From Magnetococcales bacterium (GTDB lineage Bacteria > Pseudomonadota > Magnetococcia > Magnetococcales > JADGAQ01), in the NCBI GenBank assembly GCA_015231925.1, contig JADGAQ010000002.1, positions 4,791 to 68,790 of the forward strand: 64,000 nt of DNA, read 5' to 3'. Under the pieces are notes generated by a model. It had not been told where the DNA came from and made no database searches. It was given only the letters and a program-made list of their open reading frames with translations. Both the position numbers and the translations under genes were made by a program. This document shows, in pieces, positions 11,224 to 63,389 of the stretch (positions are counted from its first letter, which is position 1; each line of letters begins with the position of its first letter).

Positions 11224-11452
11224 GTAACTGTTCAGGATCCTGCACAGCGGGACATGACCGTATCAACAGCGAAAGAATAAGTCCCAGGGGTACCCCCTGG
11301 ACCCCGGGAGGTCATAACGTCAACGGCAAAAGGAAGAGTCCCAGGGCGCTGTCCTGGATCCGTCGGGGGGGATAATCCCCCCCGAACCCCCGTATATCTG
11401 AATAGTTACTTCCTTTTTGATATTTAAAGGATAACATATTGAAAGTTAAAGG
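11224..11452. repeat. Family-D MITE-like element fused to a partial TIR60 unit
   Basis: GTAACTGTTCAGG ... CCCCGTATATCTGAATAGTTAC followed by ttcctttttgatatttaaaggataacatattgaaagttaaagg. Confidence 0.7.
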
Positions 11453-11473
11453 ATTCTAATCTCTATCTCCGGA

Positions 11474-25679: not shown

Positions 25680-25721
25680 TGGCAGGCAGGGGATTTTTCA
25701 GAAAAATTATTTTTTTATCTT

Positions 25722-25779
25722 TTGACCTTCAATATGTTTCCTTTAAATAGTAAAAAAAGAAAATGTTCTGTCCGTGGCC
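25722..25779 (+). repeat. TIR60 unit (forward orientation) in the CRISPR leader region
   Basis: TTGACCTTCAATATGTTTCCTTTAAATAGTAAAAAAAGAAAATGTTCTGTCC, matching the family consensus TTGACTTTCAATATGTTATCTTTTAAGTATCAAAAAAAGGAAATGTTCTATCCTTTGAC. Confidence 0.8.
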
Positions 25780-25786
25780 TTTTCCT

Positions 25787-27533: not shown

Positions 27534-27552
27534 CAGAGACGGCTTTATTCTG

Positions 27553-27581
27553 TTGACTTATAGTACTAGGTACGATATCAT
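27553..27581 (+). promoter_or_regulatory. Candidate hicAB promoter with an embedded palindrome
   Basis: TTGACT (27553-27558), a 17-bp spacer containing the 8-bp palindrome TAGTACTA, then TATCAT (27576-27581). The hicA ATG is at 27589. Confidence 0.45.
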
Positions 27582-27588
27582 CACTGCC

Positions 27589-27816: not shown

Positions 27817-27818
27817 CC

Positions 27819-28193
27819 GTGTATAAACCCGAAGATTACCCCTTCGAAATCAGGCCACTGGATCCGGAAGAAGGCGGCGGCTACCTGATCTCCTTCCCGG
27901 ACTTCTGCGAATGCCTCTCGGACGGCGAAACACCGGCGGAAGCGATTGAAAACGGCTTGGATGCCCTGCGAGGCCTGATCACACTCTTTGTGGAAGAGGG
28001 ACGCCCCCTACCAGCACCCCTGTCCGGCGGCTTTTCCGGAAAATTCGTGGCCAGAGTTCCCAAAACCCTGCATGCCCATCTCTCCGCCAGAGCCAAAGCG
28101 GAAGGGGTCAGTCTGAATACGCTGGTGGTGGCCCTGATCGCCGAAGGACTGGGAAGACGGGAGGCGGGAGAGATCCGAAGCCGTTCTGCATGA
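27819..28193 (+). CDS. hicB: HicB-family antitoxin with C-terminal RHH DNA-binding domain
   Basis: HicB fold N-terminus (FEIRPLDPEEGGGYLISFPDFCECLSDGETPAEAIENG). C-terminus FSGKFVARVPKTLHAHLSARAKAEGVSLNTLVVALIAEGL. The GTG start is 2 nt after the hicA stop. Confidence 0.8.
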   Translation: MYKPEDYPFEIRPLDPEEGGGYLISFPDFCECLSDGETPAEAIENGLDALRGLITLFVEEGRPLPAPLSGGFSGKFVARVPKTLHAHLSARAKAEGVSLNTLVVALIAEGLGRREAGEIRSRSA

Positions 28194-28386
28194 TAAATAG
28201 TGGTCAACCGGATACCATCCGGCGGGTGTGGCGAAAACGGTATCGTTCGATGGGCAATCGACAGGAGCAGGAGACGACCCTTGAAGAATTCTATCGGTTT
28301 TATTTAGGATCGATATAAAATATTATAAGTATGATTTTGACCGATTGATCCATATTTATTAAAAAGATTAATAAAAGATACATTCC

Positions 28387-28444
28387 AAAGTCAAAGGATA
28401 GAACGTTTTCTTTTTTTGATACTTAAAAGATAAATATTGAAAGG
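28387..28444 (-). repeat. TIR60 unit (reverse orientation)
   Basis: AAAGTCAAAGGATAGAACGTTTTCTTTTTTTGATACTTAAAAGATAAATATTGAAAGG. It forms an inverted pair with the copy at 25722. Confidence 0.8.
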
Positions 28445-28680
28445 CCACGGGTTCATTTATCCCGGATCGTCACGGATTCCACTTGCCATTTCTGTCAATT
28501 CGTCATAATAAAACCCCGACGAAGGTGCAGAGGATCCCCTCCCCCAGGCTTCGATCCCGTCAATCCGCATTCCGGCGCTATCTTTGCAATGCAAAACCTT
28601 CGAGACCGGAGAAAATCCGGCTACAATGACATCGTCGAACCCGGATAACCCGAACTGCCTTTCATGGAAGGTGCGTGGTC

Positions 28681-30384
28681 ATGCAAGACGCCAAAACCCC
28701 TGGGACCGCCCCCGACTTCATCCGCTCCATCATTCGCGACGACCTGCTGGCAGGCCGACACCACCGGGTGGTGAGCCGCTTCCCCCCCGAGCCCAACGGC
28801 TACCTCCACATCGGTCACGCCAAATCGATCTGCCTCAACTTCGGCGTGGCCCAGGAGTTCCCGGGTAGCTGGTGCAACATGCGCTTCGACGACACCAACC
28901 CCGCCAAGGAAAACCCGGAATACGTGCGCGCCATCCAGGAAGACGTCGCCTGGCTGGGCTTCGCCTGGCACGGACCCGTGCGCTTCACCTCCGACTACTT
29001 CGAACAGCTCTACACCTACGCCGAAGAGCTGATCGTCAAAGGATTGGCCTACGTCTGCGACCTCAACGCCGACCAGATTCGCGCCACCCGCGGCACCCTG
29101 ACCGAGCCGGGACAAGCCTCCCCCTTCCGGGATCGCACCGTGGAAGAAAACCTCGACCTCTTCCGTCGCATGCGCGTCGGAGAGTTCGAAGACGGCAGCC
29201 GCCTGCTGCGCGCTCGCATCGATATGGCCTCCCCCAACATCAACATGCGGGATCCCGCCCTCTATCGCATTCGCCGGCTGACCCACCATCAGACCGGGGA
29301 TCGCTGGTGCATCTATCCCACTTACGACTATTCCCACCCCATCTCCGATGCCCTCGAAGGCGTCACCCACTCCCTCTGCACCCTGGAGTTCGAAGACCAC
29401 CGGCCCCTCTACGACTGGATCCTGGCCAACGTCTCCGTGCCCTGCCGCCCCCGGCAGATCGAGTTCTCCCGGTTGGAGATGGAATACACCGTCCTCTCCA
29501 AACGCAAACTCAACACCCTGGTCAACGAAGGCTACGTCAGCGGCTGGGATGATCCCCGCATGCCGACCCTCGCCGGTTTGCGTCGTCGCGGTTACACCCC
29601 GGAGGCCATTCGCACCTTCTGTCAACGCATCGGCATCACCAAATCCGCCGGAACCGTGGAGATGGCCCTGCTGGAAAGCTGCCTGCGCGAGGATCTGGAA
29701 GTGCGGGCGCCTCGGGCCATGGCGGTCTTGCGTCCCTTGAAGATCGTGCTGGAGAACTTCCCCAAAAAAGGCGTGGAAGAGATTCAGGCCCCGATTCATC
29801 CCCAAAAACCGGAAATGGGTCAGCGCACCCTGCCCTTCACCCGCGAGATCTACATCGATCGCAACGACTTCCGCGAAGAGGCTCCCAAGCAGTTCAAGCG
29901 GCTGTTGCCGGGTGGAGAGGTTCGGCTGCGCAATGCCTATGTGATTCGCTGCGAAAAGGTGATCAAGGATCCGGTGACCAAGGAGATCGTGGAGTTGCGT
30001 TGCACCTACGATCCGCACACCTTGTCGGCCAATCCCGAAGGGCGCAAGGTGCGGGGCGTGATTCACTGGGTATCGGCCTCACGTTCCCATGCGGCGACGG
30101 TGCGCCTGTATGACCGGTTGTTCACCCATGCCGATCCGGGTGCGGGTTTGGCGGCGGGGCAGGATTTCACCGCCCGGCTTAATGCGGATTCGTTGCAGGT
30201 GTTGGAGAATGCGCGTTTGGAGGAGAGTCTGGGTGGGGCCAGGCGGGGGGTTTCGTATCAGTTCGAGCGGGAGGGGTATTTCGTGCTGGATGCCGATTCA
30301 ACCCCGGAGATGCCGGTGTTCAATCGCACGGTGGCCTTGAAGGACTCCTGGGCCAGGATTTCCGGCAGACCGGAAGAGGAATGA
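28681..30384 (+). CDS. glnS: Glutamine--tRNA ligase
   Basis: Class I HIGH motif ([14 protein letters not shown]), KMSKS-like VLSKRKL and GlnRS-specific blocks. ATG 28681 is preferred. Confidence 0.95.
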
Positions 30385-30387
30385 GCC

Positions 30388-30839
30388 GTTGCCGTTCAAT
30401 ATGTTTCCTTTAAGTATCAAAAAAAGGAAATGTTCTGTCCGTTGACGTGGCCTTGAGCGGGTCGAAGCCAAAAGGAAAGCGCAGCAACCCGATTCCCCGC
30501 ACGACCTTGGTGAACACTTCGACCCGCCGGAGGGGGCAAAGGGAGGGACTCACCCTCCCCCTCCTTGAACTCACCACCCATAATAAGCCATAGCCTGTTC
30601 CAAGCAAAACTTTCGGATCAAACTCAAATCGCGGCGGAATGGCCACGTCCCAAAAGGATGGGGAGGATGAAGCCCTCCCCTTGCCCCCTCCGGCGGGTCG
30701 AAGATGGGACAGGGTTTGGAAGACGGTGCGGAGTTGGGCACTTCTCCTTTTGGCTTCGACCCGCCAAAGGCCAAGGCCACGTCAAAGGACAGAACATTTC
30801 CTTTTTTTGATACTTAAAGGCAACATATTGAACGGCAAC
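30388..30839. mobile_element. TIR60-bounded composite with nested-palindrome cargo
   Basis: Forward TIR60 30388-30446 and reverse TIR60 30775-30839. The interior holds long inverted repeats (GGGTCGAAGCCAAAAGGA.. / ..TCCTTTTGGCTTCGACCC; GGGGGCAAAGGGAGGGACTCACCCTCCCC / GGGGAGGATGAAGCCCTCCCCTTGCCCCC). It fills the glnS/MBL convergent spacer. Confidence 0.8.
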
Positions 30840-30842
30840 TGC

Positions 30843-33461
30843 TTAATAAATACATTTATTGTTCAAGAACGCCGCATACTGCCGGTCCTCTTCTAAAATA
30901 TGATGAACCAACCAATCCGTAAAGAAGCTGCGGAAATCCTCCTTGGCCACTCCCCCACCCTTCAAGACCGCCCAATAGCCCACCACCCTCTCCACCAACC
31001 GTCGATGATGCTCCCGATGCACCGCCAACCCCGGATATCCATAAAGCGCCATCAACGCCTCCTCTTCCGCGAAATGATACCGGGTATAATCCATCAACGC
31101 CTGAAAGGCCCGCTCCAAAGGCGGCATCTCCCCCGCCCGCTGCATCTCGATAATGCCGTTGGCAATCTCCACCAAGGTCTTGTGCTGCGTGTCCATGCGC
31201 AAGACATGCACACTGAACTCCTCCCGCCAACGCAACACCTCCCGATCATTGCCGGCATGCACAATCTGCAAGGTGCGCCGCGTATACGACTCGAACAACT
31301 TCCAGCGAATGACGGGAATGTCCTTCAGCAACTCCCCATCCACCTGATAAACCTCCGTCTCCTCCTCCACCTCCAGCCGGAACAGACACGGCAGACTGAA
31401 TAACGCCCCCTCCTCCCCGAAATAGGCCCCGCGTTCCAGCATATCCAGAAACTCACTGCCCACCAAACGCCGCAACCGCCCGCTGCGCACCAGATTGAGA
31501 CTGGTCAGATCCTGACAGGTGATGCGCTCCCCCGGACGAAACCGCTTGACCCGCGCCCGATCCAATATCTGACTGAGTACCGGATAGGAAACCCCCTCCC
31601 CAAACAGCGTCGTGGTCTGGAAAAAGGACCACTTCTCCCATAACGCCTCGATCTTGGGCAACAAACCATTCAGCCGAACCAACTCCAGATAAAGCCTGCC
31701 GGGAATCCGCAACACCTGCACATAACTGGCCGCCCGATAGGTGGCCGGCGAGATTTGATGATGCAGACACGACTTCTCCCCGATCAACGCCCCCGCCGAC
31801 AGCCGACTCTGCACATTGTCCCGGGAGATGATGCGCTCCACCACCCCACCCAGAATCAACAACACATTGCCCGCCCGAGTGCCCTCCCGCAAAATGATGC
31901 TGCCCGGATTGAACTCCTCCAGATCGTTGTTGAGCAGAATGCGCACCTGATGCACCGGCATGTCCGGAAAATAGATGCGCAAATGCTCGAAAGCCCCACG
32001 GCGCGTGAAATCGGACTTGCCCACGATGAGAATGTCGGAGGTGCCATACGGCGCCGAAGAGCCGATCTCCTTCTCCTCGGAAGTCAACGGCCGCGCCACA
32101 TGCGCCAACAAAATCTTGCCCGAGGCATCCTGCCGGAAATCCTTGGCCTGCCCGTGAATCAACCCCCCGCCAATGTCGATCTTCTTCAAATCGGCGGGCG
32201 TCAGATAGGCCTCCTCCACCCGATTGTAAAACTCCCGACTCACCCCCGGAACAGAAGTGTCCGCCGTGATCATGCCCCGCAACAAATCCAACGGAACGAT
32301 ATCGGCAAAATGGGCATAGGTCTTGTAACCATTGGCCCACAGGGTGCGAAACAGAAAGATGGAGGTCTCCACCGGATGAGGCGAGAAGATAGGCTTGACC
32401 TCCACCCCTTCGATGTCATTCCACACATCGAAGGTCAAATCACAAATGTCGAAGAAATCCCGAAAACGCTCCTCCTCCATGGAAAGGAGCGCGGCAATCT
32501 TCTTCTCCGTCGAGGCCCGCACCAGCGGCGTGGCGAAATAACGGATGCGATGACCCGCCTGCATGAGAGTGGTGATGCCGGCAAAGTGGTCATCATGGGC
32601 ATGGGTGTGGAAAATGCCCTCCACTTCATCAAGCCCCACCCCCAACGCCGTGAGATTCTGCGCCAGATTGGGACCCGCATCCACCAGGAAGATGCGGCCT
32701 TGAAAAACCAGAATGCTTGACATGGCGGGACGATTGACATCCCAACCATCCCCCTCCCCGGAGTGAATAATAGAGAAGTAGTCCCGCACCAGACGCTGAT
32801 GCACCAGCGGATAGGGGGTTTCGTACTGCTCCCGCGGGGAGAGATTGAGATCCACCGCCACCTCCTCCTCCTGAAAGCGGAAGACGTAGTGGTTGGTGGC
32901 GGTGCGCCGGATGAAAAGACCGTTGCGGATTTCCACCTCCGTCTGCTCCACCAGACAGGTGTCGAGCAGCTCCTGGGAGGGACGAATGCGCCCGAAGGCA
33001 AAACGCAGCTTGAGACGCATTTGCTCCTGCGCCGCCTCCCGGGAGAGCCCGGCCTGCATCAGCTCCTCCAGGGAAACCAGCCCGTAATTGCCGCGATAGA
33101 TGTATTGCAACTGGGCGTTGACCTGCTGCGGCAACCCGATGAGCAGCGGCTTGGCCCCGGTATTGTTGGGATGCCCCGGCAGAATCATGCCCTGTTTGTA
33201 GAGCATCTGCAGCACGGGAAACTCACTCAAATTGGCGAAATCCCCGTTCTGCAACATGGTGTCGGAGAGCAGAATGGCGTTGGGCCCGCTTTCGCACGGC
33301 ACCCCCTGCTTCTCCTTCTGCAGGATGAGACCCCGCTTGATCAGATGCTTGACGCTGTCGGCGGGACATCCGCACAAAATGCGCAGATCGGCCAACGGGG
33401 CCTCCACCCAGTAGATGCCTTGGGATACCGCAATTTTATGGAGTTTCTCCATGCCATCCAC
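30843..33461 (-). CDS. MBL-fold hydrolase (class-II-PDE-like HxHxDH) + two cNMP-binding domains + hemerythrin domain
   Basis: FHTHAHDDHFAGI; two cNMP-binding-like domains (GALIGEKSCL...RAASYVQVLRI; GAYFGEEGALF); C-terminal hemerythrin (HKTLVEI...HFAEEEALM...HREHHRRL...WLVHHILEEDRQY). The N-terminal ~230 aa are unassigned. Start is GTG 33461 or ATG 33452. Confidence 0.75.
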   Translation of the reverse strand: MDGMEKLHKIAVSQGIYWVEAPLADLRILCGCPADSVKHLIKRGLILQKEKQGVPCESGPNAILLSDTMLQNGDFANLSEFPVLQMLYKQGMILPGHPNNTGAKPLLIGLPQQVNAQLQYIYRGNYGLVSLEELMQAGLSREAAQEQMRLKLRFAFGRIRPSQELLDTCLVEQTEVEIRNGLFIRRTATNHYVFRFQEEEVAVDLNLSPREQYETPYPLVHQRLVRDYFSIIHSGEGDGWDVNRPAMSSILVFQGRIFLVDAGPNLAQNLTALGVGLDEVEGIFHTHAHDDHFAGITTLMQAGHRIRYFATPLVRASTEKKIAALLSMEEERFRDFFDICDLTFDVWNDIEGVEVKPIFSPHPVETSIFLFRTLWANGYKTYAHFADIVPLDLLRGMITADTSVPGVSREFYNRVEEAYLTPADLKKIDIGGGLIHGQAKDFRQDASGKILLAHVARPLTSEEKEIGSSAPYGTSDILIVGKSDFTRRGAFEHLRIYFPDMPVHQVRILLNNDLEEFNPGSIILREGTRAGNVLLILGGVVERIISRDNVQSRLSAGALIGEKSCLHHQISPATYRAASYVQVLRIPGRLYLELVRLNGLLPKIEALWEKWSFFQTTTLFGEGVSYPVLSQILDRARVKRFRPGERITCQDLTSLNLVRSGRLRRLVGSEFLDMLERGAYFGEEGALFSLPCLFRLEVEEETEVYQVDGELLKDIPVIRWKLFESYTRRTLQIVHAGNDREVLRWREEFSVHVLRMDTQHKTLVEIANGIIEMQRAGEMPPLERAFQALMDYTRYHFAEEEALMALYGYPGLAVHREHHRRLVERVVGYWAVLKGGGVAKEDFRSFFTDWLVHHILEEDRQYAAFLNNKCIY

Positions 33462-35778: not shown

Positions 35779-36050
35779 GGCTTTGTTGGCACTTTTTGCC
35801 GAAGGCTGGTTGACACACCGCGCGGCAGAAAATGTTTCTGTAATGATAACAATGGGATAAATCAATATTCAATTATTGGCCCGGCACTTGCTACATAATA
35901 AACAAACCGAGGAACGGTGCTCTGGTTGCAGGCTCCAAGAAACTGATCTACTCAATCGACACTAAACGAACGAGCTCTGGAAGCCCACTGCGACGAATGC
36001 ATTTGTCCCCTTCGGAACCCGTCCAGCTCCCCCAGAGGGAGACGACACCA

Positions 36051-36079
36051 CCCGGATCTGCGAAGATCCGGGTTTTTTT
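36051..36079 (+). terminator. Canonical intrinsic terminator about 270 nt downstream of the cyclase gene
   Basis: CCCGGATCT-gcga-AGATCCGGG followed by T7. Confidence 0.8.
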
Positions 36080-36092
36080 ATGCCACAATCTT

Positions 36093-36543
36093 TTGACTTT
36101 CAATATGTTATCTTTTAAATATCAAAAAAAGGAAATGTTCTGTCCTTTGACTTTTCGTGACCATTCACTCCTCCTATTTCTCCCCAGCCCCCGAGGGGCC
36201 ATCTGGTCGGGGGGCTGGACGGAAACGGATGGGGCAAAGGACAGAACATTTCCTTTTTTGGATACGTATACCGTGTCTACTTTGGAATACATAATTTTTC
36301 TGTATCTGTTCAAGTATACGGGGGTTTGGAGGGGATTACCCCCCCCCAACGGGTCCAGGGCAGCGCCCTGGGACTTTTCCTTTCGCCGTTGACTTCGTCA
36401 TATCGCGCTGCGCGGGATCCTGAATAGTTATAGAAAAATTACGCATTCCAAAATGGACACGGTATAAATGAATGAAAAATAAAAAGTCAAAGGATAGAAC
36501 ATTTCCTTTTATTGATACTTAAAAGATAACATATTGAAAGTCA
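36093..36543. mobile_element. TIR60-bounded composite carrying a family-D element
   Basis: Forward TIR60 36093-36152, internal partial reverse copy ~36233-36270, second inverted pair ATACCGTGTC.../...GACACGGTAT, reversed family-D core ~36302-36431, and reverse TIR60 36483-36543. Confidence 0.8.
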
Positions 36544-36679
36544 AATGATTAAAATATATTTCCGCTTGGCTGCAGGAGCATTGCCACACCTCCCCCAACA
36601 GGTGAGGCGTTGCCCCAAACACCCTCAAGGAGGATAATGCTCCCCCCGGCCCACGAATGCTCGAAAACGATCGGATCCC

Positions 36680-37258
36680 ATGGAAAAACCGCACTGGACT
36701 TGGCGCTACGCACGCATTCAATGGTGGAAACGCATCATGCGCCCCATGGTTCGTTCCCCCCACCCCCCGGAATATCAAGCCCGGGCCTCCTTCTGGGGCC
36801 TGGTGGTCAACTTCACCCCCTCCATCGGCTTCCAACTGCCCATGGTGGCCGCCATCTGGGCCATCTCCCGCACCTTGCGCAAAGAGTGGGATTTCAACTT
36901 CCCCCTGGCCTTCGCCTGGACCTGGATCACCAACCCCGCCACCGCCGCCCCCCTCTACTACCTGTTTCTGGTCACCGGACGCTTCATGCTGGGCGAGTGG
37001 GACAACCCCAACATGGACTTCGAGGCCTTTCGCAATCTCTTCGGGGAAGTCTTTCGGGAAGGTGGCGCGGAAACAAGCTGGTGGCAGGTGATGCTGGACC
37101 AGATGACCCAGCTTTGGCATCACTTCGGCTTTCCCATGGTGGTGGGTTCCCTGCCCTGGGCCCTGTTCAGCGGCTGGGTCGGCTATGTCTGGACGTTGCG
37201 CTTTCTCAAAGCCTACCACGCCCGCCGGGCAAGGATGTCGAATCAGGCTTCCCTGTAA
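36680..37258 (+). CDS. DUF2062-family membrane protein
   Basis: 192 aa. FWGLVVNFTPSIGFQLPMVAAIWAISR...AFAWTWITNPATAAPLYYL matches the DUF2062 pattern. Overlapping ORFs in other frames are discounted. Confidence 0.65.
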   Translation: MEKPHWTWRYARIQWWKRIMRPMVRSPHPPEYQARASFWGLVVNFTPSIGFQLPMVAAIWAISRTLRKEWDFNFPLAFAWTWITNPATAAPLYYLFLVTGRFMLGEWDNPNMDFEAFRNLFGEVFREGGAETSWWQVMLDQMTQLWHHFGFPMVVGSLPWALFSGWVGYVWTLRFLKAYHARRARMSNQASL

Positions 37259-37265
37259 TTTATCT

Positions 37266-37486
37266 TTCGACTTTCAATATGTTATCCTCTAAGTATCAAA
37301 AAAAGGAAATGTTCTATCCTTTGACTTTGCGCCGCATGATGGTGTCAACGGCGTATGGAAAAGTCCCAGGGTGCTGCCCTGGACCCGTCTGAGGGGAGTA
37401 ATCCACTACGTATATCTGAACAGATATAAATCATAAAGTCAAAGGACAGAACATTGCCTTTTTTTGATACTTGAAGGATAACATAT
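37266..37486. mobile_element. TIR60-bounded composite (short family-D cargo)
   Basis: Forward unit 37266-37328, cargo ..GTCAACGGCGTATGGAAAAGTCCCAGGGTGCTGCCCTGGACCC.., reverse unit 37426-37486. Confidence 0.8.
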
Positions 37487-37536
37487 TGAAAGTCAAAGAA
37501 TTACGGTAACACTGCCATCGGGGTCGGGCCTGAACA

Positions 37537-39234
37537 TCAGGAGGCGTTGTCCAACCGCTCTTCCATGCCCTCTTCATACATCTGGAAGTCGTTGCGACCC
37601 CGCTTTTTGACGGCATACATGGCCATATCGGCCTTCTTGACCAGTTCCTCCGGCGTATGGCCGCTCTTGGGAAAAAGCGCCGCCCCCACGGAAGATCCGA
37701 TGCGGCAGGTATTGCCTTTCAGCTCGAAGGGTTCGTTGAGGGCATCGATGATCTTGCGGGCCACCAGGGCCACCGCGTCCCCGTCCGTCACCACCGAGAG
37801 CAGCAGAACGAACTCGTCCCCACCCAACCGCGCCAGGGTGTCGGCATCGCGCAGGCAACTGCGAATGCGCCGGGAGACCTCCCGCAACAGCATATCGCCG
37901 ATATCGTGGCCCAGAGAGTCGTTGACCTGTTTGAAGCGGTCCAGATCCATGAACAACACCGCAAGCGTTTTCTGCTCCCGTTGGGCGCGGGCCAGGGTGC
38001 GTTCCAGCAACTCCAGGAAGAGTACCCGATTGGGCAAACCCGTCAGGGGATCGTGATGGGCCATGAAACGCAGCTTCTCCTCCGCCTCCCGCAGGCGCTG
38101 TTCCATCTGACGCCGCTCGATGATGCCCGCCAGGGTGATGGCAATGGTGGAGAGAAAGGCCACCTCCTCCGAGGTTTGCTGATGATTGTGGGGCACATAC
38201 AGGTTGAGTACCCCCAGCAGTCGCTGGTTGGAAAGCAGGGGAATGCAGTAGTGGCCGTGTTCGCTGATGCCCTGAAAGGTGACATCGTGGCGATGGTCCA
38301 GGGCGTTGGCGAAGACCAGTTCCCGGGTTTCCGCCGCCCGACCGCACAAACAGTATCCCGGCGGAATGCGGGCGCAGGCCGTGAGCAGATGGCGGTGCAG
38401 ACCCCGCTGACTGGCGATGACCAGATCCCCGGTCTGGGGGTCCACCAGAAAGATGGATCCCTTGTATTCCACCGCCAGCCAGGAGACGGAAAGCACGATG
38501 TCCAGCGCCACTTCCAACTGCCGGCTGAGGGTCAATGGCTCCAGACCCGTCTCCAGCAACGCGGTGATGGCCAGCCGGGAAGCCTGACTGCGCAGCTCCC
38601 GACGCTCCTCCTCCCGTCGGCGGGAGATGTCGCGAAAAACCACCACCGCTCCGGTCGGCACGCCATTTTCCATGATCGGCGAGCTGGTATAATCCACCGG
38701 AAAGCTGCTGCCATCTTTCCGCCAAAAACAATCCCGATCCGTTTGACGCGGTTTTCCGGTGTGAATGGAGGCATAAATCTGACACTCCTCCTTGGGATAG
38801 GGAGAACCGTCCCGATGGGAATGGTGCAGAATTTCATGCTGATGGTGCCCGATCAGATCGTCCCGGGTCCAACCCGTCATGCGGATGGCGGCTTGATTGA
38901 CGAAGGTGGTGTTGCCGTACTGATCGACTCCGTAAATGCCTTCCGCCGCCGCGTTCAAAATCAGTTCGGTGCGATGGTGCAGGGTCTCCAGGGTGGAGCT
39001 TTGTTCGTCCAGACGCATGGCAAGGCGGCGGAAGTGGCCCGACAGGTAGATCAGATAGCCCAATCCCACCAGAATGGAGAGCAGAAAGAGGTTACCCCAA
39101 TGGCGATCCATCTTCTGACGCAGCCATTGGTCCGACAAATGGGCGAACGGATCGATCTCCAGATGCACCAATACGGCATCACCCAGGGTAACCAGGAGCA
39201 GTCCCAGGCCGACATGCAACAGAAAGCGTTTCAT
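37537..39234 (-). CDS. Membrane-anchored PAS-GAF-GGDEF diguanylate cyclase
   Basis: TM start MKRFLLHVGLGLLLV (ATG 39234; the track ORF runs on to 39690 and overlaps the upstream gene). PAS, GAF and the RLGGDEFVLLL active site. Confidence 0.85.
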   Translation of the reverse strand: MKRFLLHVGLGLLLVTLGDAVLVHLEIDPFAHLSDQWLRQKMDRHWGNLFLLSILVGLGYLIYLSGHFRRLAMRLDEQSSTLETLHHRTELILNAAAEGIYGVDQYGNTTFVNQAAIRMTGWTRDDLIGHHQHEILHHSHRDGSPYPKEECQIYASIHTGKPRQTDRDCFWRKDGSSFPVDYTSSPIMENGVPTGAVVVFRDISRRREEERRELRSQASRLAITALLETGLEPLTLSRQLEVALDIVLSVSWLAVEYKGSIFLVDPQTGDLVIASQRGLHRHLLTACARIPPGYCLCGRAAETRELVFANALDHRHDVTFQGISEHGHYCIPLLSNQRLLGVLNLYVPHNHQQTSEEVAFLSTIAITLAGIIERRQMEQRLREAEEKLRFMAHHDPLTGLPNRVLFLELLERTLARAQREQKTLAVLFMDLDRFKQVNDSLGHDIGDMLLREVSRRIRSCLRDADTLARLGGDEFVLLLSVVTDGDAVALVARKIIDALNEPFELKGNTCRIGSSVGAALFPKSGHTPEELVKKADMAMYAVKKRGRNDFQMYEEGMEERLDNAS

Positions 39235-39397
39235 TGTATAGGTATGTACCGTCAAACCGACTTGGGCCATGGCCCTTGTGTCCCGATCCCCCCCCCGGGT
39301 TCCAGGATCTCTTTCCCGGGGTAAATAAGAAGCCTTCCCCCGTTGCGGCGAATTGTAGCAATTCTTCTGCCGGTCGAACAGGTATGGTGAAAGAAGG

Positions 39398-40480
39398 TCA
39401 GCGTGAGGGATCCGTCTCCGGGTCGGCGAAGTCCAGCGCCGTCTGCCGGAAGTCCTCCACCCGGGCATTGAAAGCGTCCACCACATCCGGGTCAAAATGG
39501 GTATTGCGGTTTTCTCGAATGATTCTTTCGGCCTCCGGATGGGAAAAAGCCGATTTATAGACCCGGCAACTGATGAGGGCGTCGAAGACATCGGCCAGAG
39601 CCATGAGGCGTCCGGAGATCGGAATGGCGTCTCCTGCCAGGCCTCGGGGATAGCCGGCGCCGTCCCATTTTTCGTGATGGGTGAAGGCAATTTCGCTGGC
39701 GAGATGGAGAAAGGAGGTGGATCCCAGGCTGCGTTGAGCGGCTTCCAGGGTTTTGTAGCCCAGAAGGGTATGATCCTTCATGCGCTCGAACTCTTCCGCC
39801 GTCAGTTTGCCGGGTTTGAGCAGAATCTGGTCGGGGATGCCCACTTTGCCCATGTCGTGGAGGGGTGCGGATTTGAACAGCATGTCCACCATGGTGTCCG
39901 TCAGGGTGTCCCGGAAGCGGGGGTGTCGTTGCAGGACCGAAGCGAGGATACGAACATAATGCTGGGTACGACGGATGTGTCCTCCGGTTTCGGGATCACG
40001 GGTTTCCGCCAGGGAGGCCAGGGCGTGGATGGTGGCTTCCTGGGTGATGGCGATTTCCCGGGTGCGTTGCTCGACCAGTTCTTCCAGATGGTCCTTGTGC
40101 CGTTTGAGTTCCACCTGGCTGCGGACACGAGCCTTGACCAGGCGGGGCACAATCGGTTTGGTGATAAAATCGACGGCTCCGACGGTCAATCCTCTGACTT
40201 CCGCCTCGGTTTCCGCCAACGCCGTGACAAACAGCACCGGAATACTCCAGGTTATCGGATCCGACTTAAGGCGGAGACAAACCTCGAAACCATCCATGCC
40301 GGGCATCATGACATCCAGCAGAATGACATCCGGAGGATTGGATTCCCGGGCCAGTTGCAGGGCGGTTTCTCCATCCCGGGCCACCACGATGGTATAATCG
40401 TGGCGCAGGGTCTCCGCGAGGATGCGAAGGTTGCCCGGATTGTCATCCACCAGTAGAATCTTGGGGCGGCTCGAATCCAT
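39398..40480 (-). CDS. Response regulator with HD-GYP c-di-GMP phosphodiesterase domain
   Basis: REC (KILLVDDNPGNLR...DVILLDVMMPGMDG) and HD-GYP (LHDMGKVGIPD, HHEKWDGAGYPRGL). Start is ATG 40480 or 40498. Confidence 0.88.
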   Translation of the reverse strand: MDSSRPKILLVDDNPGNLRILAETLRHDYTIVVARDGETALQLARESNPPDVILLDVMMPGMDGFEVCLRLKSDPITWSIPVLFVTALAETEAEVRGLTVGAVDFITKPIVPRLVKARVRSQVELKRHKDHLEELVEQRTREIAITQEATIHALASLAETRDPETGGHIRRTQHYVRILASVLQRHPRFRDTLTDTMVDMLFKSAPLHDMGKVGIPDQILLKPGKLTAEEFERMKDHTLLGYKTLEAAQRSLGSTSFLHLASEIAFTHHEKWDGAGYPRGLAGDAIPISGRLMALADVFDALISCRVYKSAFSHPEAERIIRENRNTHFDPDVVDAFNARVEDFRQTALDFADPETDPSR

Positions 40481-40554
40481 GTGCTTTCGAAAGGGCATGG
40501 GGAATAGTAGCGACCTGGTGATAAAGATAGCACGAAACAGGACAAGTGAAACAC

Positions 40555-42213
40555 ATGTCTGAAAAAAGTCTCCCACCGGCCCTGATGGAAAAACTCAACC
40601 TGGCCTGTCGCAACTGGGCGGGCGAGTTACCGGCGCGATTGCGCAAGATTCAGGAGATCTGGACCGGGCTGCAACCGGACTCCTGGCAAAAGGAGCGCTT
40701 CGACACGCTGCATCGCATGGTGCATTCCCTGGCCGGATCGGGGGCCACCTTCGGTTTCCCCAGGGTAGGCGAAAAGGCCCGGGTGATGGAGAATCTCATC
40801 GCCACCTGGTGTTTGCGCGGTGAGGTTCCGGATCAGACGGGACGGAACGCCGTTTCCCAGGCGTTACAGCATCTGGTGGAGCAGATCGCCCTGGATTTGC
40901 GGACGGGCCCCGCACCGATCATGGTCGAGGAGGCTGAGGAGAGTCAGAAAACACCACCTCGTGAGGCAGCGCTGATATTACTGGCAGAGCCCGACGCGCT
41001 TTGGAGCAAAACACTCGGGCAGCAGTTGGCCTGTTACGGCTATCGGGTGGAAACATGCACCACGCTCGATATTCTGCTGCGCCGTCTGGAAGTGGTTTCG
41101 CCGGGAGTGGTGATTCTCAACGTGGCCATGCCGGATGGCGATGGTGCGCTTTACTGGCGGCGTTTTCGGGAAGAACGGGAAAATCTACCCCCAGTCATTT
41201 TCATCACCCGGCAGGGCGATCTGGAGACCCGGTTGAACGTGGTTCGGGCCGGGGGGGTGACGCTTTTCGAAAAACCGGTGGACATCACCCGTTTGGTGGA
41301 CACGTTGGATGAGCTGGTGCATCCGCTGCACGAGGAGCCCTATCGCATTCTGGTGGTGGACGATTCCAGGGCCTTGGCCCAGCATTTGGCCAATATTCTG
41401 GAAGAGGGGGGCATGCAGACCAAGGTGGTCAACAATCCTTTGGATGTGTTGGAACATCTGCACGAATTCCGGCCGGATCTGGCTTTGATGGATCTCTACA
41501 TGCCGCAGTGTACCGGATTGGAACTGGCGCGGGTCATTCGGCAGCAGCCTGTTTTTGTTGGCATGCCGATCGTTTTTCTGTCGGGTGAAAAGAACCTGGA
41601 TAAGCAACTCAGCGCCATGGCCACGGGAGGGGATGATTTTCTGACCAAGCCGATTCAGCCGGATCATCTGGTTCGGTCGGTATTGACGCGGGTCAGGCGG
41701 TCGCGGATTTTGCAGGGGTTCATGATCAAGGACAGTTTGACGGGTCTTTATAATCACACGCGCACCAAGGAGCAGTTGGCTTTGGCGGTCGGGCGGGCGC
41801 AACGGTTGGGCAAGCCGTTGGCGATGGCCATGGTCGATATCGACAAGTTCAAGTCGGTTAACGACACCTATGGGCATCCCACGGGGGATCGGGTGATTCG
41901 GAGTCTTTCCCGATTGTTGCGGCAGCGGGTGCGTTCCACGGATATCGTAGGGCGGTATGGCGGGGAGGAGTTTGCGGTTATTTTTCCGGAGACGGATGGT
42001 GAAACGGCCTTGGGGGTGATGGATACGTTGCGGGAGGCGTTTTCGACGATTCAGCATCAGTTCGAGGAGACGGTTTTCACGCGGACGTTTTCCTGTGGGG
42101 TGGCGGCGTTTCCGGGGCAGCAGACGGCGACGGCGTTGAATGATGCGGCGGATCGGGCGTTGTACGAGGCGAAGAACGGGGGGAGGAATCGGGTGGTGTT
42201 GGCGGGGAAGTGA
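40555..42213 (+). CDS. Hpt-REC-REC-GGDEF response regulator/diguanylate cyclase
   Basis: N-terminal Hpt-like domain (LHRMVHSLAGSGATFGF), two receiver domains (the second has DLALMDLYMPQCTG) and the RYGGEEFAVIF active site. Confidence 0.85.
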   Translation: MSEKSLPPALMEKLNLACRNWAGELPARLRKIQEIWTGLQPDSWQKERFDTLHRMVHSLAGSGATFGFPRVGEKARVMENLIATWCLRGEVPDQTGRNAVSQALQHLVEQIALDLRTGPAPIMVEEAEESQKTPPREAALILLAEPDALWSKTLGQQLACYGYRVETCTTLDILLRRLEVVSPGVVILNVAMPDGDGALYWRRFREERENLPPVIFITRQGDLETRLNVVRAGGVTLFEKPVDITRLVDTLDELVHPLHEEPYRILVVDDSRALAQHLANILEEGGMQTKVVNNPLDVLEHLHEFRPDLALMDLYMPQCTGLELARVIRQQPVFVGMPIVFLSGEKNLDKQLSAMATGGDDFLTKPIQPDHLVRSVLTRVRRSRILQGFMIKDSLTGLYNHTRTKEQLALAVGRAQRLGKPLAMAMVDIDKFKSVNDTYGHPTGDRVIRSLSRLLRQRVRSTDIVGRYGGEEFAVIFPETDGETALGVMDTLREAFSTIQHQFEETVFTRTFSCGVAAFPGQQTATALNDAADRALYEAKNGGRNRVVLAGK

Positions 42214-42250
42214 GACACCAATCCGTTGACTTTATAATATTTCCTTTGGC

Positions 42251-42379
42251 GTAACCATTCAGACCCCTGAACAGTGCGGCATGATTGTGTCAACGGCGAA
42301 AGGAAAAGTCCCAGGGCGCTGCCCTGGACCCGTCGGGGGGGATAATCCCCCCCGAACCCCCGTATATCTGAATTGTTAC
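42251..42379. repeat. Family-D MITE-like element (near-consensus copy)
   Basis: GTAACCATTCAGACCCCTGAACAGTGCGG...GTCCCAGGGCGCTGCCCTGGACCCGTCGGGGGGGATAATCCCCCCCGAACCCCCGTATATCTGAATTGTTAC. Confidence 0.8.
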
Positions 42380-42429
42380 CCTTTGACTTTCAATAAATCC
42401 TTTTAATTAATAAAAAGGGTTGGGGGAGT

Positions 42430-42464
42430 CTGAGGGGGAGCTCTGCTGCCCCCTCAGGGTTTTT
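42430..42464 (+). terminator. Intrinsic terminator after the Hpt-REC-REC-GGDEF gene
   Basis: CTGAGGGGG-agctctgctg-CCCCCTCAG followed by GGTTTTT. Confidence 0.7.
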
Positions 42465-42487
42465 CCTTGCCTTTCCCTTTAAAAATA

Positions 42488-42613
42488 TTACCGCTGTTCA
42501 GGATCCTGCACAGCGCATATTCGTTTCAACGGCAAAAGGAAGAGTCCCAGGGTGCTGCCCTGGATCCGTCGGGGGGGATAATCCCCTCCGAACCCCCATC
42601 TACCTGAACAGAT
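42488..42613. repeat. Family-D MITE-like element overlapping the 3' end of the methyltransferase ORF
   Basis: TTACCGCTGTTCAGGATCCTGCACAGCG...GGGGGGGATAATCCCCTCCGAACCCCCATCTACCTGAACAGATGG. Confidence 0.8.
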
Positions 42614-43374
42614 GGCAACTTTCGAGTATTCAGCCCCGCCTTCACCATCAAGGGCCAGCTCACCCTGCGTTCCCCCTCCCCCCACATCGTGGCCAACCGC
42701 TGCTCCAGCGCCACCACCGGATCCTGTCCCGTGGCCTTGAGACAGGCCCCGGTCGCCGACCAACTGCGCAAATAGCCCATCAATTCCGCCAAACACCACG
42801 ACTGCGCCATGCAGAACTCGGGAACCTCCCCGATCGGATCAAAGGGAAACGGCAGCTCCCGATACCCCGTCTCCACATGATGTCTCTCCGGCGGCCAATA
42901 AGGCCCCACCACCCGGTGATAAAAGCGCTCCACCTCGCGCCCCACCTCTTCACCCGCCACCCGGAGAATGCCGTAACACCAGACGGCAATCACCCCACCC
43001 GGCTTCAACACCCGTTTAACCTCGGCGTAAAACCGCTCCGGATCGAACCAGTGCAGCGCCTGGGCCACAATCACCAGATCACAGCTCGCCGTTTCCAGAC
43101 CGCTCTCTTCCGCAGGAGCCACCCGATAGACGATGCCCGGATGCCGCATGGCCTTTCCGATCTGGCCGGCACTGGCATCCGTGGCCAATACCCGCTCGAA
43201 ATGGGCCGTCAAAGCCAGGGAAGCCTGTCCGGAACCCGCGCCGCAATCCCAGGCCTGGCGATGCTCCCGGCACAGGGAAGCCAGCCAGGTGAACAACTCC
43301 GCCGGATAAGTGGGCCGATGCCGGGCATAATGGGCGGAAACCGGATCGAAGTGGTCCGAAAAGGCCACCTTCAC
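42526..43374 (-). CDS. Class I SAM-dependent methyltransferase
   Basis: AWDCGAGSGQASLALTAHFERVLATDAS...LKPGGVIAVW. There is a 4-nt start/stop overlap with the upstream GGDEF-EAL gene. The last ~29 codons lie inside a repeat element. Confidence 0.8.
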   Translation of the reverse strand: MKVAFSDHFDPVSAHYARHRPTYPAELFTWLASLCREHRQAWDCGAGSGQASLALTAHFERVLATDASAGQIGKAMRHPGIVYRVAPAEESGLETASCDLVIVAQALHWFDPERFYAEVKRVLKPGGVIAVWCYGILRVAGEEVGREVERFYHRVVGPYWPPERHHVETGYRELPFPFDPIGEVPEFCMAQSWCLAELMGYLRSWSATGACLKATGQDPVVALEQRLATMWGEGERRVSWPLMVKAGLNTRKLPSVQVDGGSEGIIPPDGSRAAPWDSSFCR

Positions 43375-46978: not shown

Positions 46979-46995
46979 TCATCTGTTCGGTGAAT

Positions 46996-58565: not shown

Positions 58566-58630
58566 TTTGCCGTTTCACCCGGGTTTCCGAGTTTTCGGAA
58601 ACCGGGGATTTTCAGACAACGCCAATTTTT

Positions 58631-58790
58631 TTGACGTTCAATATTTTTTCTTTAAGTATCAAAAAAAGAAAATGTTCTATTTTTTGACGTTCAATATTTT
58701 TCTTTAAGTATCAAAAAAAGAAAATGTTCTATTTTTTGACGTTCAATATTTTTCTTTAAGTATCAAAAAAAGAAAATGTTCTATCCTCTA
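58631..58790 (+). repeat. Tandem triplication of the TIR60 unit
   Basis: Three head-to-tail copies of TTGACGTTCAATATTTTTCTTTAAGTATCAAAAAAAGAAAATGTTCTATTTT, with TTGAC starts at 58631, 58684 and 58736 (53- and 52-bp periods). Confidence 0.92.
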
Positions 58791-58987
58791 TTCTTTCAGG
58801 CTCGCCCAGCTCATGGCCATCCTTTTCGGCGGCCTTTTGCCGAAAAGGATGGCCCAAGAGCGAGCCCGCCATTGGTCTTGTCTTCAGCCAATCGTCCGTT
58901 TGATTGGCTGAAGACAAGAGCGGATTGCCCGTGAAAATGGCTTCGACGTTTTGGTTTTTTATTATATAAAATCAACAGACAAGACAG

Positions 58988-59046
58988 AGTCAAAGGATAG
59001 AACATTTTCTTTTTTTGATTTTTAAAAGATAAATATTAAAAGTCAA
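58988..59046 (-). repeat. TIR60 unit (reverse) closing the 58631-59046 composite
   Basis: GAGTCAAAGGATAGAACATTTTCTTTTTTTGATTTTTAAAAGATAAATATTAAAAGTCAA. Confidence 0.8.
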
Positions 59047-59052
59047 AGAAAA

Positions 59053-62217: not shown

Positions 62218-62255
62218 CTTTCCTCTTTTCCGAAGGGTGGGTAATATTAAATTTT

Positions 62256-62531
62256 TTGACTTTCAATATTTTATCTTATAAATATCAAAAAAAAGGAAAT
62301 GTTCTATCCTTTGACTTTTTCATTTATCATTTATTTAGATCGTTTTGAACCATTGCTTCTCCTTTCGCTGTTGACGTTCAAACCCCATGGGATCCAGGGG
62401 GCGCAGGGACTTGTCCTTTGATTGTTGATACGGTCACGCTACGCTACGCAGGGTTCTGAATCGTTACGGAAAGTCAAAGGATAGAACATTTCCTTTTTTT
62501 GATACTTAAAAGATAAAATATTGAAAGTCAA
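62256..62531. mobile_element. TIR60-bounded composite with reversed family-D-like cargo
   Basis: Forward unit 62256-62318 and reverse unit 62471-62531. The cargo contains GGATCCAGGGGGCGCAGGGAC and ends in ..TTCTGAATCGTTAC. Confidence 0.8.
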
Positions 62532-62592
62532 AAGATCAAAGACATATACCCACAGGATCTCGGGAGTTTTGCAACTCCCTCGGATGACGGAA

Positions 62593-62991: not shown

Positions 62992-63165
62992 GTCCTCTTC
63001 CTTGAAGGCAGGAGTGAAACTTCCCTCGCTACGCCCCGCCATTGTTCACCGTCGAGGGGAAATTTTCAATCATTTCTCTACCGGAATCGGTGCGCCTTAA
63101 CGGAAAATACCAATTGCATTATGGTGACGCAATGGTTCATCATGATTTAAAGTAACAAAACAGGA

Positions 63166-63223
63166 AAAGTCAAAGTATAGAACATTTTCCTTTTTTACTT
63201 TCTAAAGGATAACATATTGAAAG
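63166..63223 (-). repeat. Solo TIR60 unit
   Basis: AAAGTCAAAGTATAGAACATTTTCCTTTTTTACTTTCTAAAGGATAACATATTGAAAGG. Confidence 0.75.
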
Positions 63224-63389
63224 GAAAAGGATTTAAAATATACTACCCGCTTGGCTTCGTGGCATATTGCAACTCCCTCGGACTTGCCGATATTCGGGAT
63301 TCCGCCTCTTTTCCGCTCGTCAAGCGCATCCGTCCTCGTTACCATGGGCGATACACTCGTCCCCATTGAACAAACCAGCCCTTTTGCAG

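What the first reader, a model, noticed from the sequence alone, without database searches (positions are those of the whole stretch)
36093..36543. A ~60-bp AT-rich unit (TIR60) acts as the terminal inverted repeat of MITE-like composites with different cargos
The consensus is TTGACTTTCAATATGTTATCTTTTAAGTATCAAAAAAAGGAAATGTTCTATCCTTTGAC. It occurs at least 16 times in 64 kb, mostly as inward-facing pairs. Cargo ranges from a ~100-bp family-D fragment (37266-37486) to nested palindromes (30388-30839) and twin hairpins (58631-59046). In the 36093-36543 copy there is a further internal partial unit and a second inverted pair (ATACCGTGTC/GACACGGTAT). The unit begins and ends with the direct repeat TTGAC, about 52 bp (roughly five helical turns) apart. 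That could reflect a phased protein-binding site (transposase, IHF-like or a regulator). No transposase is encoded in the window.
Basis: seen in the sequence. Interest (0 to 1): 0.55.

Follow-up and report, generated by a model that had tools for sequence, protein, structure and literature searches.

The report
AT-rich arm of foldback intergenic repeats
A 68-bp AT-rich sequence really does sit in inward-facing pairs around small non-coding inserts between genes of an uncultured magnetotactic coccus, and it is best read as one arm type of a new but ordinary family of selfish, hairpin-forming intergenic repeats.

Summary
The window holds 13 full unit loci, 2 extra tandem copies and 2-3 partial copies. 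Ten of the 13 loci form five inward-facing pairs 230-460 bp long, and there are no outward or same-sense close pairs (P about 1e-4 to 1e-3).

The same family occurs in two Magnetococcales MAGs (JADGCJ01, 99.6% identical to the window, and JADGAP01) and nowhere else that I could search.

The classical MITE reading is only partly supported:
- No target-site duplication appears at any offset.
- No transposase is encoded in the window, and no autonomous partner was found.
- The cargos are mostly other repeat families (D, P) that also occur on their own. P elsewhere carries a GC-rich arm instead of TIR60, joined at the same GTYGAC.
- Three arms share about 50 bp of homology outside the unit.
- Partner arms are nevertheless more alike than non-partners, and one whole composite recurs at a non-orthologous locus, so doublets behave as units.

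Each arm carries three phased copies of ATCYTTTRA, 22 and 32 bp apart. Every pair can fold into an A7-stem-insert-stem-U7 structure, which resembles a terminator on both strands.

Verdict: this is a new family of modular foldback repeats, similar to MITEs or BIMEs. The enzyme that moves it is unknown and its interest is modest.

The parts
36087..36155 (+). Left TIR60 arm of composite W2 (the copy in the finding)
   Evidence: 69-nt arm, 94% complementary to 36482-36550
36177..36225 (.). GC-rich hairpin between the left arm and the internal half-unit
   Evidence: I8, 16-nt arms
36233..36268 (-). Internal partial unit. It keeps only the inner half (stem half plus T-run) and pairs with 36120-36149
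   Evidence: I3, 30 nt, 97%
36267..36466 (.). Nested family-D element with long inverted ends (the ATACCGTGTC/GACACGGTAT pair); the D core is 36303-36430
   Evidence: (I2)
36482..36550 (-). Right TIR60 arm of W2; about 50 bp of shared homology continues outside it to about 36600
30384..30843 (.). Composite W1: TIR60 arms (30384-30455, 30772-30843) around a family-P nested palindrome. It fills the whole gap between the convergent glnS and cNMP/hemerythrin genes
37262..37501 (.). Composite W3: TIR60 arms around a 106-bp family-D fragment, between convergent genes
58629..59049 (.). Composite W4: three tandem units (period 52 bp), twin hairpins and one inverted unit, between convergent genes
62252..62537 (.). 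Composite W5: TIR60 arms around a family-D right half, between a response-regulator gene and a hybrid kinase gene (both on the - strand)
25717..25785 (+). Solo unit between the truncated cas2-like ORF and the CRISPR leader
28385..28452 (-). Solo unit between hicB and glnS
63163..63233 (-). Solo unit upstream of the response-regulator gene, with outer and inner extensions shared with other arms
11410..11454 (-). Partial unit (outer half) fused to a family-D copy
42378..42416 (+). Weak partial unit fused to a family-D copy
   Evidence: (E = 0.022)

Best explanation
TIR60 is the roughly 68-bp AT-rich arm (RATCYTTTGAC...TCCTTTGACTTT) of a lineage-restricted family of non-coding foldback repeats. 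The family most likely spreads, or once spread, through intergenic DNA as inverted doublets, moved in trans by an enzyme encoded elsewhere in the genome.

Each arm carries three same-sense copies of ATCYTTTRA, 22 and 32 bp apart (two and three helical turns). I infer that these are the docking sites for that enzyme.

The variety of inserts arises because the arms are one module in a mosaic. The same cores (family P) also occur with a GC-rich arm joined at the same GTYGAC, and family D elements are nested inside doublets.

The elements are tolerated at gene 3' ends. When transcribed, each doublet can fold into a long hairpin. In the nascent RNA this is a 21-bp stem followed directly by U7, on either strand, so a side effect or co-opted role as a bidirectional terminator or RNA-stability element is plausible.

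Shown: the anatomy, the pairing, the coupling of partner arms, recurrence of a whole composite, the absence of a TSD, and the mosaic structure. Inferred: mobility, protein binding and termination.
For: - Pairing is non-random: 5 of 5 close pairs in the window and 4 of 4 in JADGAP01 face inward.
- Partner arms are more alike than non-partner arms of the same genome: 0.925 against 0.885 (p = 0.003), and 0.912 against 0.880 (p = 0.048). W1's two arms share private variants.
- The whole W4 architecture (one unit, hairpin 1, hairpin 2, three tandem units) recurs as M4 in JADGAP01 between pyrB and pyrC, which is a non-orthologous context. Its cargo is 79% identical, about as conserved as the arms.
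- The composites are 180-460 bp, non-coding and intergenic. They occupy 4 of the 6 convergent gaps and none of the 5 divergent gaps.
- A composite folds with z = -15, whereas a single unit has no structure (z = -0.5).
- Three phased 9-mers occur per arm (47 of 5000 shuffles reach this) and are kept in most copies.
- The A7-stem-U7 geometry is present on both strands in 8 of 9 composites. The internal half-unit of W2 keeps exactly the stem half and T-run.
- The family is confined to two related MAGs and is absent from another Magnetococcales MAG.
Against: - No target-site duplication appears at any offset (at most 2 of 9 composites for k >= 3), and there is no consistent TA.
- No autonomous partner or transposase was found.
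- No empty or filled site pair could be obtained.
- Inserts are unrelated even in the two shortest doublets, which is unusual for a family amplified from one master copy.
- Homology runs past the 'terminus' in three arms.
- The inner half is better conserved than the tip, whereas transposase-cleaved ends are usually best conserved at the tip.
- The data set is small: 24 arms from two genomes, one of them a fragmented MAG.
Confidence: 0.5

Rival explanations
1. This is a host-selected cis element. The doublets are kept because they work as bidirectional intrinsic terminators or mRNA 3'-end stabilisers, comparable to REP/BIME or the pneumococcal SPRITE repeat. Their conservation would then reflect that function rather than recent transposition.
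For: - The best-conserved part is the inner half, A7 plus the 21-nt stem strand (0.92-0.98 per column).
- In 8 of 9 composites, on both strands, the predicted nascent RNA ends in a 19-21-bp stem followed directly by U7.
- Four of the six convergent gene gaps carry the element, and W1 starts 0-5 nt after each of the two stop codons.
- W2's internal half-unit keeps exactly the stem and T-run.
- SPRITE and REP precedents are described in PMC3184786.
Against: - The 'loop' is 55-330 nt, far larger than in known intrinsic terminators.
- W2 lies directly after a canonical terminator at 36050-36080.
- M3 and M4 lie inside a pyrR-pyrB-pyrC cluster, where termination would be harmful.
- Solo units cannot form the stem.
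- A7/U7 next to a stem follows automatically from any inverted repeat that contains an A-run.
- This reading does not explain how the copies spread.
Confidence: 0.2
2. Single units, not doublets, are the inserting entity. Each unit lands in a fixed orientation next to a TTGAC/GTYGAC site. Because the targets are palindromic repeats (P cores, hairpins) that carry this site at both ends, inward-facing pairs arise automatically. This could be an IS200/IS605-like single-strand mechanism, which leaves no TSD and inserts 3' of a pentanucleotide.
For: - Units begin and end with TTGAC, and tandem units share it.
- In W1 the unit abuts the P core exactly at GTTGAC. Other P copies have a GC-rich arm at that same junction.
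- Solo units exist.
- There is no TSD.
- Most cargos are hairpin-rich.
Against: - Partner arms share private variants and are significantly more alike than non-partners.
- The shortest doublets (M1, M3) enclose non-palindromic unique inserts.
- The unit has no hairpin of its own for a Y1 transposase to read.
- The direct repeat is 13 bp, not 5.
Confidence: 0.1
3. The unit is a regulatory protein-binding array (promoter or operator, or a site for a nucleoid protein such as the MucR/Ros encoded at 6907-7464), and the pairs are symmetric operators.
For: - Three phased 9-mers occur per arm.
- It is AT-rich DNA in a 58% GC genome.
- Outer ends often face nearby gene starts: 36680, 62217, 28675, and pyrB and pyrC in L001.
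- Two outward promoter-like matches use the unit's outer end.
Against: - Half of the doublets lie between convergent stop codons, where there is nothing to regulate.
- None lies in a divergent promoter region.
- Promoter-like matches are no more frequent than in shuffles.
- The density, about one per 4 kb, is too high for a specific regulon.
Confidence: 0.07
4. The pairs are invertible segments (invertons) flipped by a site-specific recombinase acting on the 68-bp inverted repeats.
For: Inverted repeats flank 55-330-bp segments, and many loci share one repeat consensus, as in Bacteroides promoter invertons (my own knowledge, not tested here).
Against: - W3 has the same orientation in the window and in the independent assembly L011: the alignment is collinear with 14 mismatches rather than the roughly 75% expected for an inverted insert.
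- No recombinase gene is present in the window.
- Several loci are between convergent genes.
- The inserts are other repeats, not promoters.
Confidence: 0.03

Closest known systems
Bacterial MITEs with long stem-loops (Correia/CREE of Neisseria, ERIC/IRU, Nezha), as summarised in PMC3184786
   Same: Small, non-coding and multi-copy. They have terminal inverted repeats, lie in intergenic DNA, fold into long hairpins and are often nested. They are known to supply promoters, terminators or RNase III sites (the last point is from my own knowledge).
   Different: TIR60 has no target-site duplication and no known parent IS. Its arms are about 68 bp, against 20-30 bp in those families. Its inserts are unrelated between copies, and homology sometimes continues outside the arms.
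REPINs / REP-RAYT system (PMC3116915, PMC3337134)
   Same: The replicating entity is an inverted doublet and singletons look like remnants. There is no TSD. Copy density is very high, with a preference for gene 3' ends and convergent gaps.
   Different: REP units are about 20-25-nt GC-rich palindromes. TIR60 is 68 bp, AT-rich and not self-complementary. No RAYT gene was seen.
Mosaic intergenic repeats: BIMEs of enterobacteria and NIMEs of Neisseria (named in PMC3184786)
   Same: Intergenic blocks are assembled from a small set of modules in alternating orientation. The same core occurs with different flanking modules.
   Different: The module sequences are unrelated. BIME function (gyrase and IHF binding) and the NIME dRS3 20-bp repeats have no counterpart demonstrated here.
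[quoted passage not shown]
   Same: A dispersed repeat whose fold resembles an intrinsic terminator.
   Different: SPRITE is a compact hairpin of about 105 bp. Here the stem closes a 55-330-nt insert, and termination is untested.
Transposon ends with several transposase-binding repeats (IR-DR ends of Tc1/Sleeping Beauty; Tn7, Mu and IS21 ends) - from my own knowledge
   Same: There are several same-sense short repeats inside each inverted end, phased on one face of the helix.
   Different: All of those make target-site duplications (TA or 4-8 bp) and none is seen here. No related transposase was found.

Membership tests
MITE (definition in PMC3184786) | Terminal inverted repeats around a core | tested here: met
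   69-72-nt arms, 94-96% complementary; 9 of 9 close pairs are inverted
MITE (definition in PMC3184786) | Flanking target-site duplication (direct repeats) | tested here: not met
   All offsets 0-14 and k = 2-10 were scanned. At most 2 of 9 composites agree for k >= 3, and there is no consistent TA
MITE (definition in PMC3184786) | Small size, no transposase gene, multi-copy | tested here: met
   180-460 bp; 17 copies in 64 kb; no transposase family hit in the window
MITE (definition in PMC3184786) | Folds into a long stem-loop | tested here: met
   W3: -75 kcal/mol, z = -15
MITE (definition in PMC3184786) | TIRs shared with an autonomous IS | tested here: inconclusive
   No partner was found in the window, the fetched loci, plasmids, viral contigs or metagenomes. 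The host genome itself could not be scanned
MITE (definition in PMC3184786) | Empty versus filled orthologous sites | not testable with these tools
   The only close relative (L011, 99.6%) has the same copies. The next relatives are not syntenic
REPIN / REP-RAYT | Inverted doublet as the repeated entity, with singletons as remnants | tested here: met
REPIN / REP-RAYT | Unit is a short GC-rich palindrome that forms its own hairpin | tested here: not met
   The unit is 68 bp, AT-rich and folds with z = -0.5
REPIN / REP-RAYT | A RAYT (Y1 transposase) gene flanked by the repeats | tested here: inconclusive
   None in the window; the rest of the genome was not available
Mosaic intergenic repeats (BIME/NIME type) | The same modules recombine in different combinations and orientations | tested here: met
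   The P core occurs with TIR60 arms (W1) or with GC-rich arms (14988-15459, 47712-48254, 54758-55223). D occurs solo or nested. An outer module is shared by three arms
Intrinsic terminator-like repeat (SPRITE type) | Stem directly followed by a U-run | tested here: met
   8 of 9 composites, both strands
Intrinsic terminator-like repeat (SPRITE type) | Compact hairpin (short loop) and measured termination | tested here: not met
   The stem encloses 55-330 nt. The consensus terminator scan does not call it. Termination activity is not testable here
Inverton | Both orientations of the enclosed segment occur | tested here: not met
   W3 is collinear in the window and in L011. Only two assemblies were compared
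IR-DR type transposon end | Several same-sense binding repeats within each inverted end | tested here: met
   ATCYTTTRA occurs three times, spaced 22 and 32 bp
IR-DR type transposon end | TA target duplication and a Tc1/mariner or IS630 transposase | tested here: not met
   no such gene was found

The most novel reading that the evidence does not exclude
TIR60 and the GC-rich arm are two interchangeable end modules that both finish in YTTGAC. A single recombinase that leaves no TSD (for example a single-strand HUH/Y1 or IS110-like enzyme that reads TTGAC) might assemble and move hairpin cassettes between intergenic sites. The host might have co-opted the result as portable bidirectional terminators. 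That would be a modular cassette system for intergenic DNA rather than a simple MITE family.
Probability: 0.12. Interest if true: 0.6.

Novelty: new member of a known kind. Interest (0 to 1): 0.3.

Why it matters
If the reading is right, repeats of this and two companion families make up most of the DNA at gene 3' ends in this uncultured Magnetococcales lineage. That has three consequences:
- It explains why short-read MAGs of the lineage break at these sites. L011 starts inside W2.
- It provides strain-typing markers.
- It offers a test case for a TSD-less, multi-module foldback repeat whose mobilising enzyme is unknown.

Beyond that it is an ordinary example of a well-known phenomenon.

Tried and rejected
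- Metagenome scans: one exact pattern gave nothing and one gapped pattern gave only chance hits.
- Viral contig and plasmid searches gave nothing.
- Rfam gave nothing at gathering scores. At relaxed thresholds it gave only generic miRNA-hairpin matches, which I rejected as meaningless.
- I searched the protein database with the one open reading frame through the unit (LTFNMLSFKYQKKEMF...) to fish out more copies. No candidates were found.
- I looked for empty sites through orthologues of DUF2062 and GlnS. The next relatives are only 48% and 68% identical and not syntenic.
- I tried to extend beyond the window through exact-protein look-ups. Nothing was on record.
- The 3.8-kb interval between two inward-facing solo units in L004 holds HigBA, an unknown ORF and GspM/N-like ORFs (my reading of the ORF translations; no family search was run) but no transposase. 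The 2.7-kb interval between the window's solo units holds the CRISPR array and HicAB. I treated both as chance pairs.
- An internal ATGTT...ATC sub-repeat that I saw by eye is not significant.
- A TA target duplication was considered and rejected.
- IHF-site and sigma-54, EcfG or sigma-32 promoter matches were checked by eye only and none fits.
- The CCKTTGAC enrichment (23 observed against 5 expected) merely reflects the repeat families themselves.

Full report
**What is there**

The two arms are 69 nt long and 94% complementary.

A BLAST census and then a profile search give the following in the window:
- 13 full unit loci
- two additional tandem copies at 58682 and 58734 (period 52 bp)
- partial copies at 36233-36268 and 11410-11454
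- a weak partial copy at 42378-42416

Ten of the 13 loci form five inward-facing pairs:
- W1 30384-30843
- W2 36087-36550
- W3 37262-37501
- W4 58629-59049
- W5 62252-62537

No close pair has any other orientation. The chance probability is 7e-5 under random placement in intergenic DNA and 9e-4 when only the orientations are shuffled.

Aligning all copies with their flanks shows that conservation starts about 5 bp outside the quoted consensus (RATCYT-TTGAC) and ends about 3 bp inside it (TTGAC-TTT). The unit is therefore about 68 bp.

**Where it comes from**

The window is about 58% GC and chromosomal. Its genes include CheD/CheR, sulfite reductase, UvrA, GlnS, many PAS/GGDEF/hemerythrin signalling proteins and a type III-A Csm CRISPR-Cas locus.

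A scan of one genome per species found the unit only in a Magnetococcales MAG, JADGAP01. A second MAG contig (JADGCJ010000104, locus L011) is 99.56% identical to window 36481-47258 and begins inside W2, so short-read assemblies break at this repeat.

JADGAP01 carries four more inward pairs (M1-M4) and three solos. Its flanking genes are not homologous to the window.

Another Magnetococcales MAG, whose GlnS is 68% identical, has no copy in 21.7 kb. Metagenome, viral and plasmid collections hold nothing real, and I found no paper describing such repeats in magnetotactic bacteria.

**Anatomy of the arm**

A third, degenerate copy lies between them. The 9-mer ATCYTTTRA occurs at positions 2, 24 and 56 of the 68-mer, spaced 22 and 32 bp apart, which is two and three helical turns. 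Only 47 of 5000 shuffles give three copies, and most genomic copies keep the motifs within one mismatch.

The inner half (ATC-A7-GRAAATGTTCTRTCCTTTGAC) is the best-conserved part, at 0.92-0.98 per column. The outer half scores 0.86-0.90.

A single unit has no secondary structure of its own (z = -0.5). A composite folds into one long hairpin (W3: -75 kcal/mol, z = -15).

**Is it a MITE?**

By the definition in PMC3184786, several features are met. The element has inverted arms, is small, lacks a transposase gene, is multi-copy and folds into a long stem-loop.

The target-site duplication is not met. I scanned every combination of offsets 0-14 bp outside each arm for direct repeats of 2-10 bp. 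At most 2 of 9 composites agree for k >= 3, and there is no consistent TA.

No transposase family is detectable in any substantial ORF of the window. The 3.8-kb interval between two inward solos in JADGAP01 holds a HigBA pair and GspM/N-like ORFs (read from the ORF translations; no family search was run), not a transposase. I could not obtain empty sites, because the nearest non-identical relatives are not syntenic.

**The cargos are other repeats, and the arms are exchangeable modules**

- The inserts of W2, W3, W5 and M2 contain family D. This is a roughly 135-bp element with its own ends (GTAACTATTCAGA...) and a CCAGGGCAGCGCCCTGG hairpin. It also occurs alone at 7472-7658, 11222-11409, 42251-42378 and 42494-42613.
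- W1's insert is a nested palindrome (family P). P also occurs at 14988-15459, 47712-48254 and 54758-55223. There it is flanked not by TIR60 but by a 60-nt GC-rich inverted arm related to the left end of D, and that arm is joined to the core at the same GTYGAC-GTGGCC junction.
- The two shortest doublets (M1, M3) enclose unrelated unique inserts of 54-60 bp.
- Three arms (36544-, 62531-, 63227-) share about 50 bp more homology outside the unit.
- Partial units are fused to D copies at 11410 and 42378.

This is the pattern of mosaic intergenic repeats of the BIME/NIME kind, with nesting, rather than of one MITE amplified from one master copy.

**Evidence that doublets nevertheless behave as units**

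Within each genome, partner arms are more similar than randomly paired arms: 0.925 against 0.885 (p = 0.003) in the window, and 0.912 against 0.880 (p = 0.048) in JADGAP01. W1's two arms share private variants (TTGCC for TTGAC, and a 1-bp deletion).

The complete W4 architecture (unit, hairpin 1, hairpin 2, three tandem units) recurs as M4 in JADGAP01. M4 lies between pyrB and pyrC, whereas W4 lies between a sulfatase-maturase-like gene and a hybrid kinase gene. In that comparison the insert is 79% identical, about as conserved as the arms. Hairpin 1 differs at six stem positions on each strand, all compensatory, while the loop is identical. The twin-hairpin insert is strongly structured (z = -8.4). 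It matches no Rfam family beyond generic hairpins.

**Position and possible effect**

By my gene map, all six convergent gene gaps in the window contain one of these repeat families. Four of them carry TIR60 sequence: W1, W3, W4 and the partial copy at 11410. None of the five divergent gaps contains TIR60, D or P. W1 fills the whole gap between two stop codons.

Because each arm carries an A7 run just outside its inner 21 nt, a transcript entering a doublet from either side would fold as follows once the far arm's T-run is reached: a 19-21-bp stem formed by the two inner halves, followed directly by U7. ViennaRNA predicts this stem in 8 of 9 composites on both strands. W2's internal half-unit retains exactly that stem strand and the T-run, and pairs with the left arm at 97%.

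This geometry follows automatically from an inverted repeat that contains an A-run, and the enclosed 'loop' is 55-330 nt. I therefore treat termination as a plausible consequence, not a finding.

Simple sigma-70 scans give two outward-facing promoter-like matches that use the unit's outer end plus flanking sequence.

**Most likely mechanism**

The explanation I favour has confidence of about 0.5. TIR60 is an arm module of a lineage-specific family of foldback repeats that spread as doublets, moved in trans by an unknown enzyme. The three phased 9-mers are its likely binding sites. Insert diversity comes from module exchange and nesting.

The absence of a TSD argues against the usual DDE families. 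It leaves TSD-less enzymes (HUH/Y1, IS110-like, serine or tyrosine recombinases) or non-transpositional spread.

The rivals are:
- a host-selected terminator or RNA-stability element (0.2; not exclusive of the above)
- independent, oriented insertion of single units next to TTGAC sites of palindromic repeats (0.1; weakened by the coupling of partner arms)
- a regulatory binding array (0.07)
- invertons (0.03; W3 has the same orientation in two assemblies)

**Unexplained**

Between the window and L011, 14 of the 47 mismatches fall in the 230 bp of W3, and 4 fall in or next to the adjacent W2 arm. The repeats are therefore about 20 times more divergent than their surroundings. This may be consensus contamination in a short-read MAG, or it may be real gene conversion among copies.

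**Novelty**

This is a new family of a known kind of element. It has some unusual traits: 68-bp arms with three phased motifs, no TSD, tandem arm arrays and interchangeable AT-rich and GC-rich arms. Interest is modest.

Noticed in passing
window 18775-27537: A type III-A (Csm) CRISPR-Cas locus: Cas10, Csm2-5 and Cas6, followed by a 20-repeat array at 26029-27532 (repeat ...TTAAGTCATCGCCCCGCTYGATAGGGGATTGAAAC). Two repeat variants (T or C at one position) are arranged in blocks. A degenerate lone repeat at 25470-25506 sits just before a 47-aa ORF at 25536-25679 that looks by eye like a truncated Cas2 C-terminus (no family search run). No cas1 was seen.
   Followed up: partly
window 27553-28193: A HicB antitoxin gene (Pfam hit) preceded by an 87-aa ORF with no family hit (possibly hicA), directly after the CRISPR array. 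In JADGAP01 a solo TIR60 unit likewise sits next to a pair of ORFs that look like HigBA by their translations (L004 3553-4157).
   Followed up: partly
window 7472-7658, 11222-11409, 42251-42378, 42494-42613 (nested at 36303-36430, 37331-37426, 62360-62469): Family D: a roughly 135-190-bp MITE-like repeat with ends GTAACTATTCAGA, a G-rich palindrome GGGGGGATTATCCCCCCC, and one or two copies of a terminator-like hairpin CCAGGGCAGCGCCCTGG followed by ...GCCGTTGAC. It is also present in JADGAP01.
   Followed up: partly
window 14988-15459, 47712-48254, 54758-55223: Family P: 470-540-bp nested palindromes with about 60-nt GC-rich inverted arms related to the left end of family D. The copy at 48080-48180 also contains a (CAGACACGG)n-like tandem run.
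   Followed up: partly
window 6000-11200: A lower-GC stretch (50-53%) holding a MucR/Ros-type regulator (6907-7464) and two ORFs (7831-8547 and 8579-11194, the latter 871 aa) with no Pfam or NCBIfam hit. It may be a foreign island.
   Followed up: no
L001 (JADGAP010000238.1) 713-3038: In the related MAG, TIR60 elements sit upstream of pyrR, between pyrR and pyrB, and between pyrB and pyrC. The last unit's outer end lies within about 10 nt of the pyrC start codon. M4 also carries a (TTAGAGGA)x3-4 microsatellite.
   Followed up: partly
window 36481-47258 versus L011: 18 of the 47 mismatches between the two assemblies fall in or next to TIR60 elements (14 in W3). The first 142 bp of L011 match nothing in the window, which suggests a chimeric join through the repeat or a structural variant of W2.
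   Followed up: partly
window 62540-62592, 63234-63290, 36551-36600: A shared motif of about 50 bp outside three arms (CCGAGGGAGTTGCAA...GCCAAGCGG...TATATTTTAATC). In one copy it forms a small hairpin, GGGAGTT-GCA-AACTCCC. Its function is unknown.
   Followed up: no
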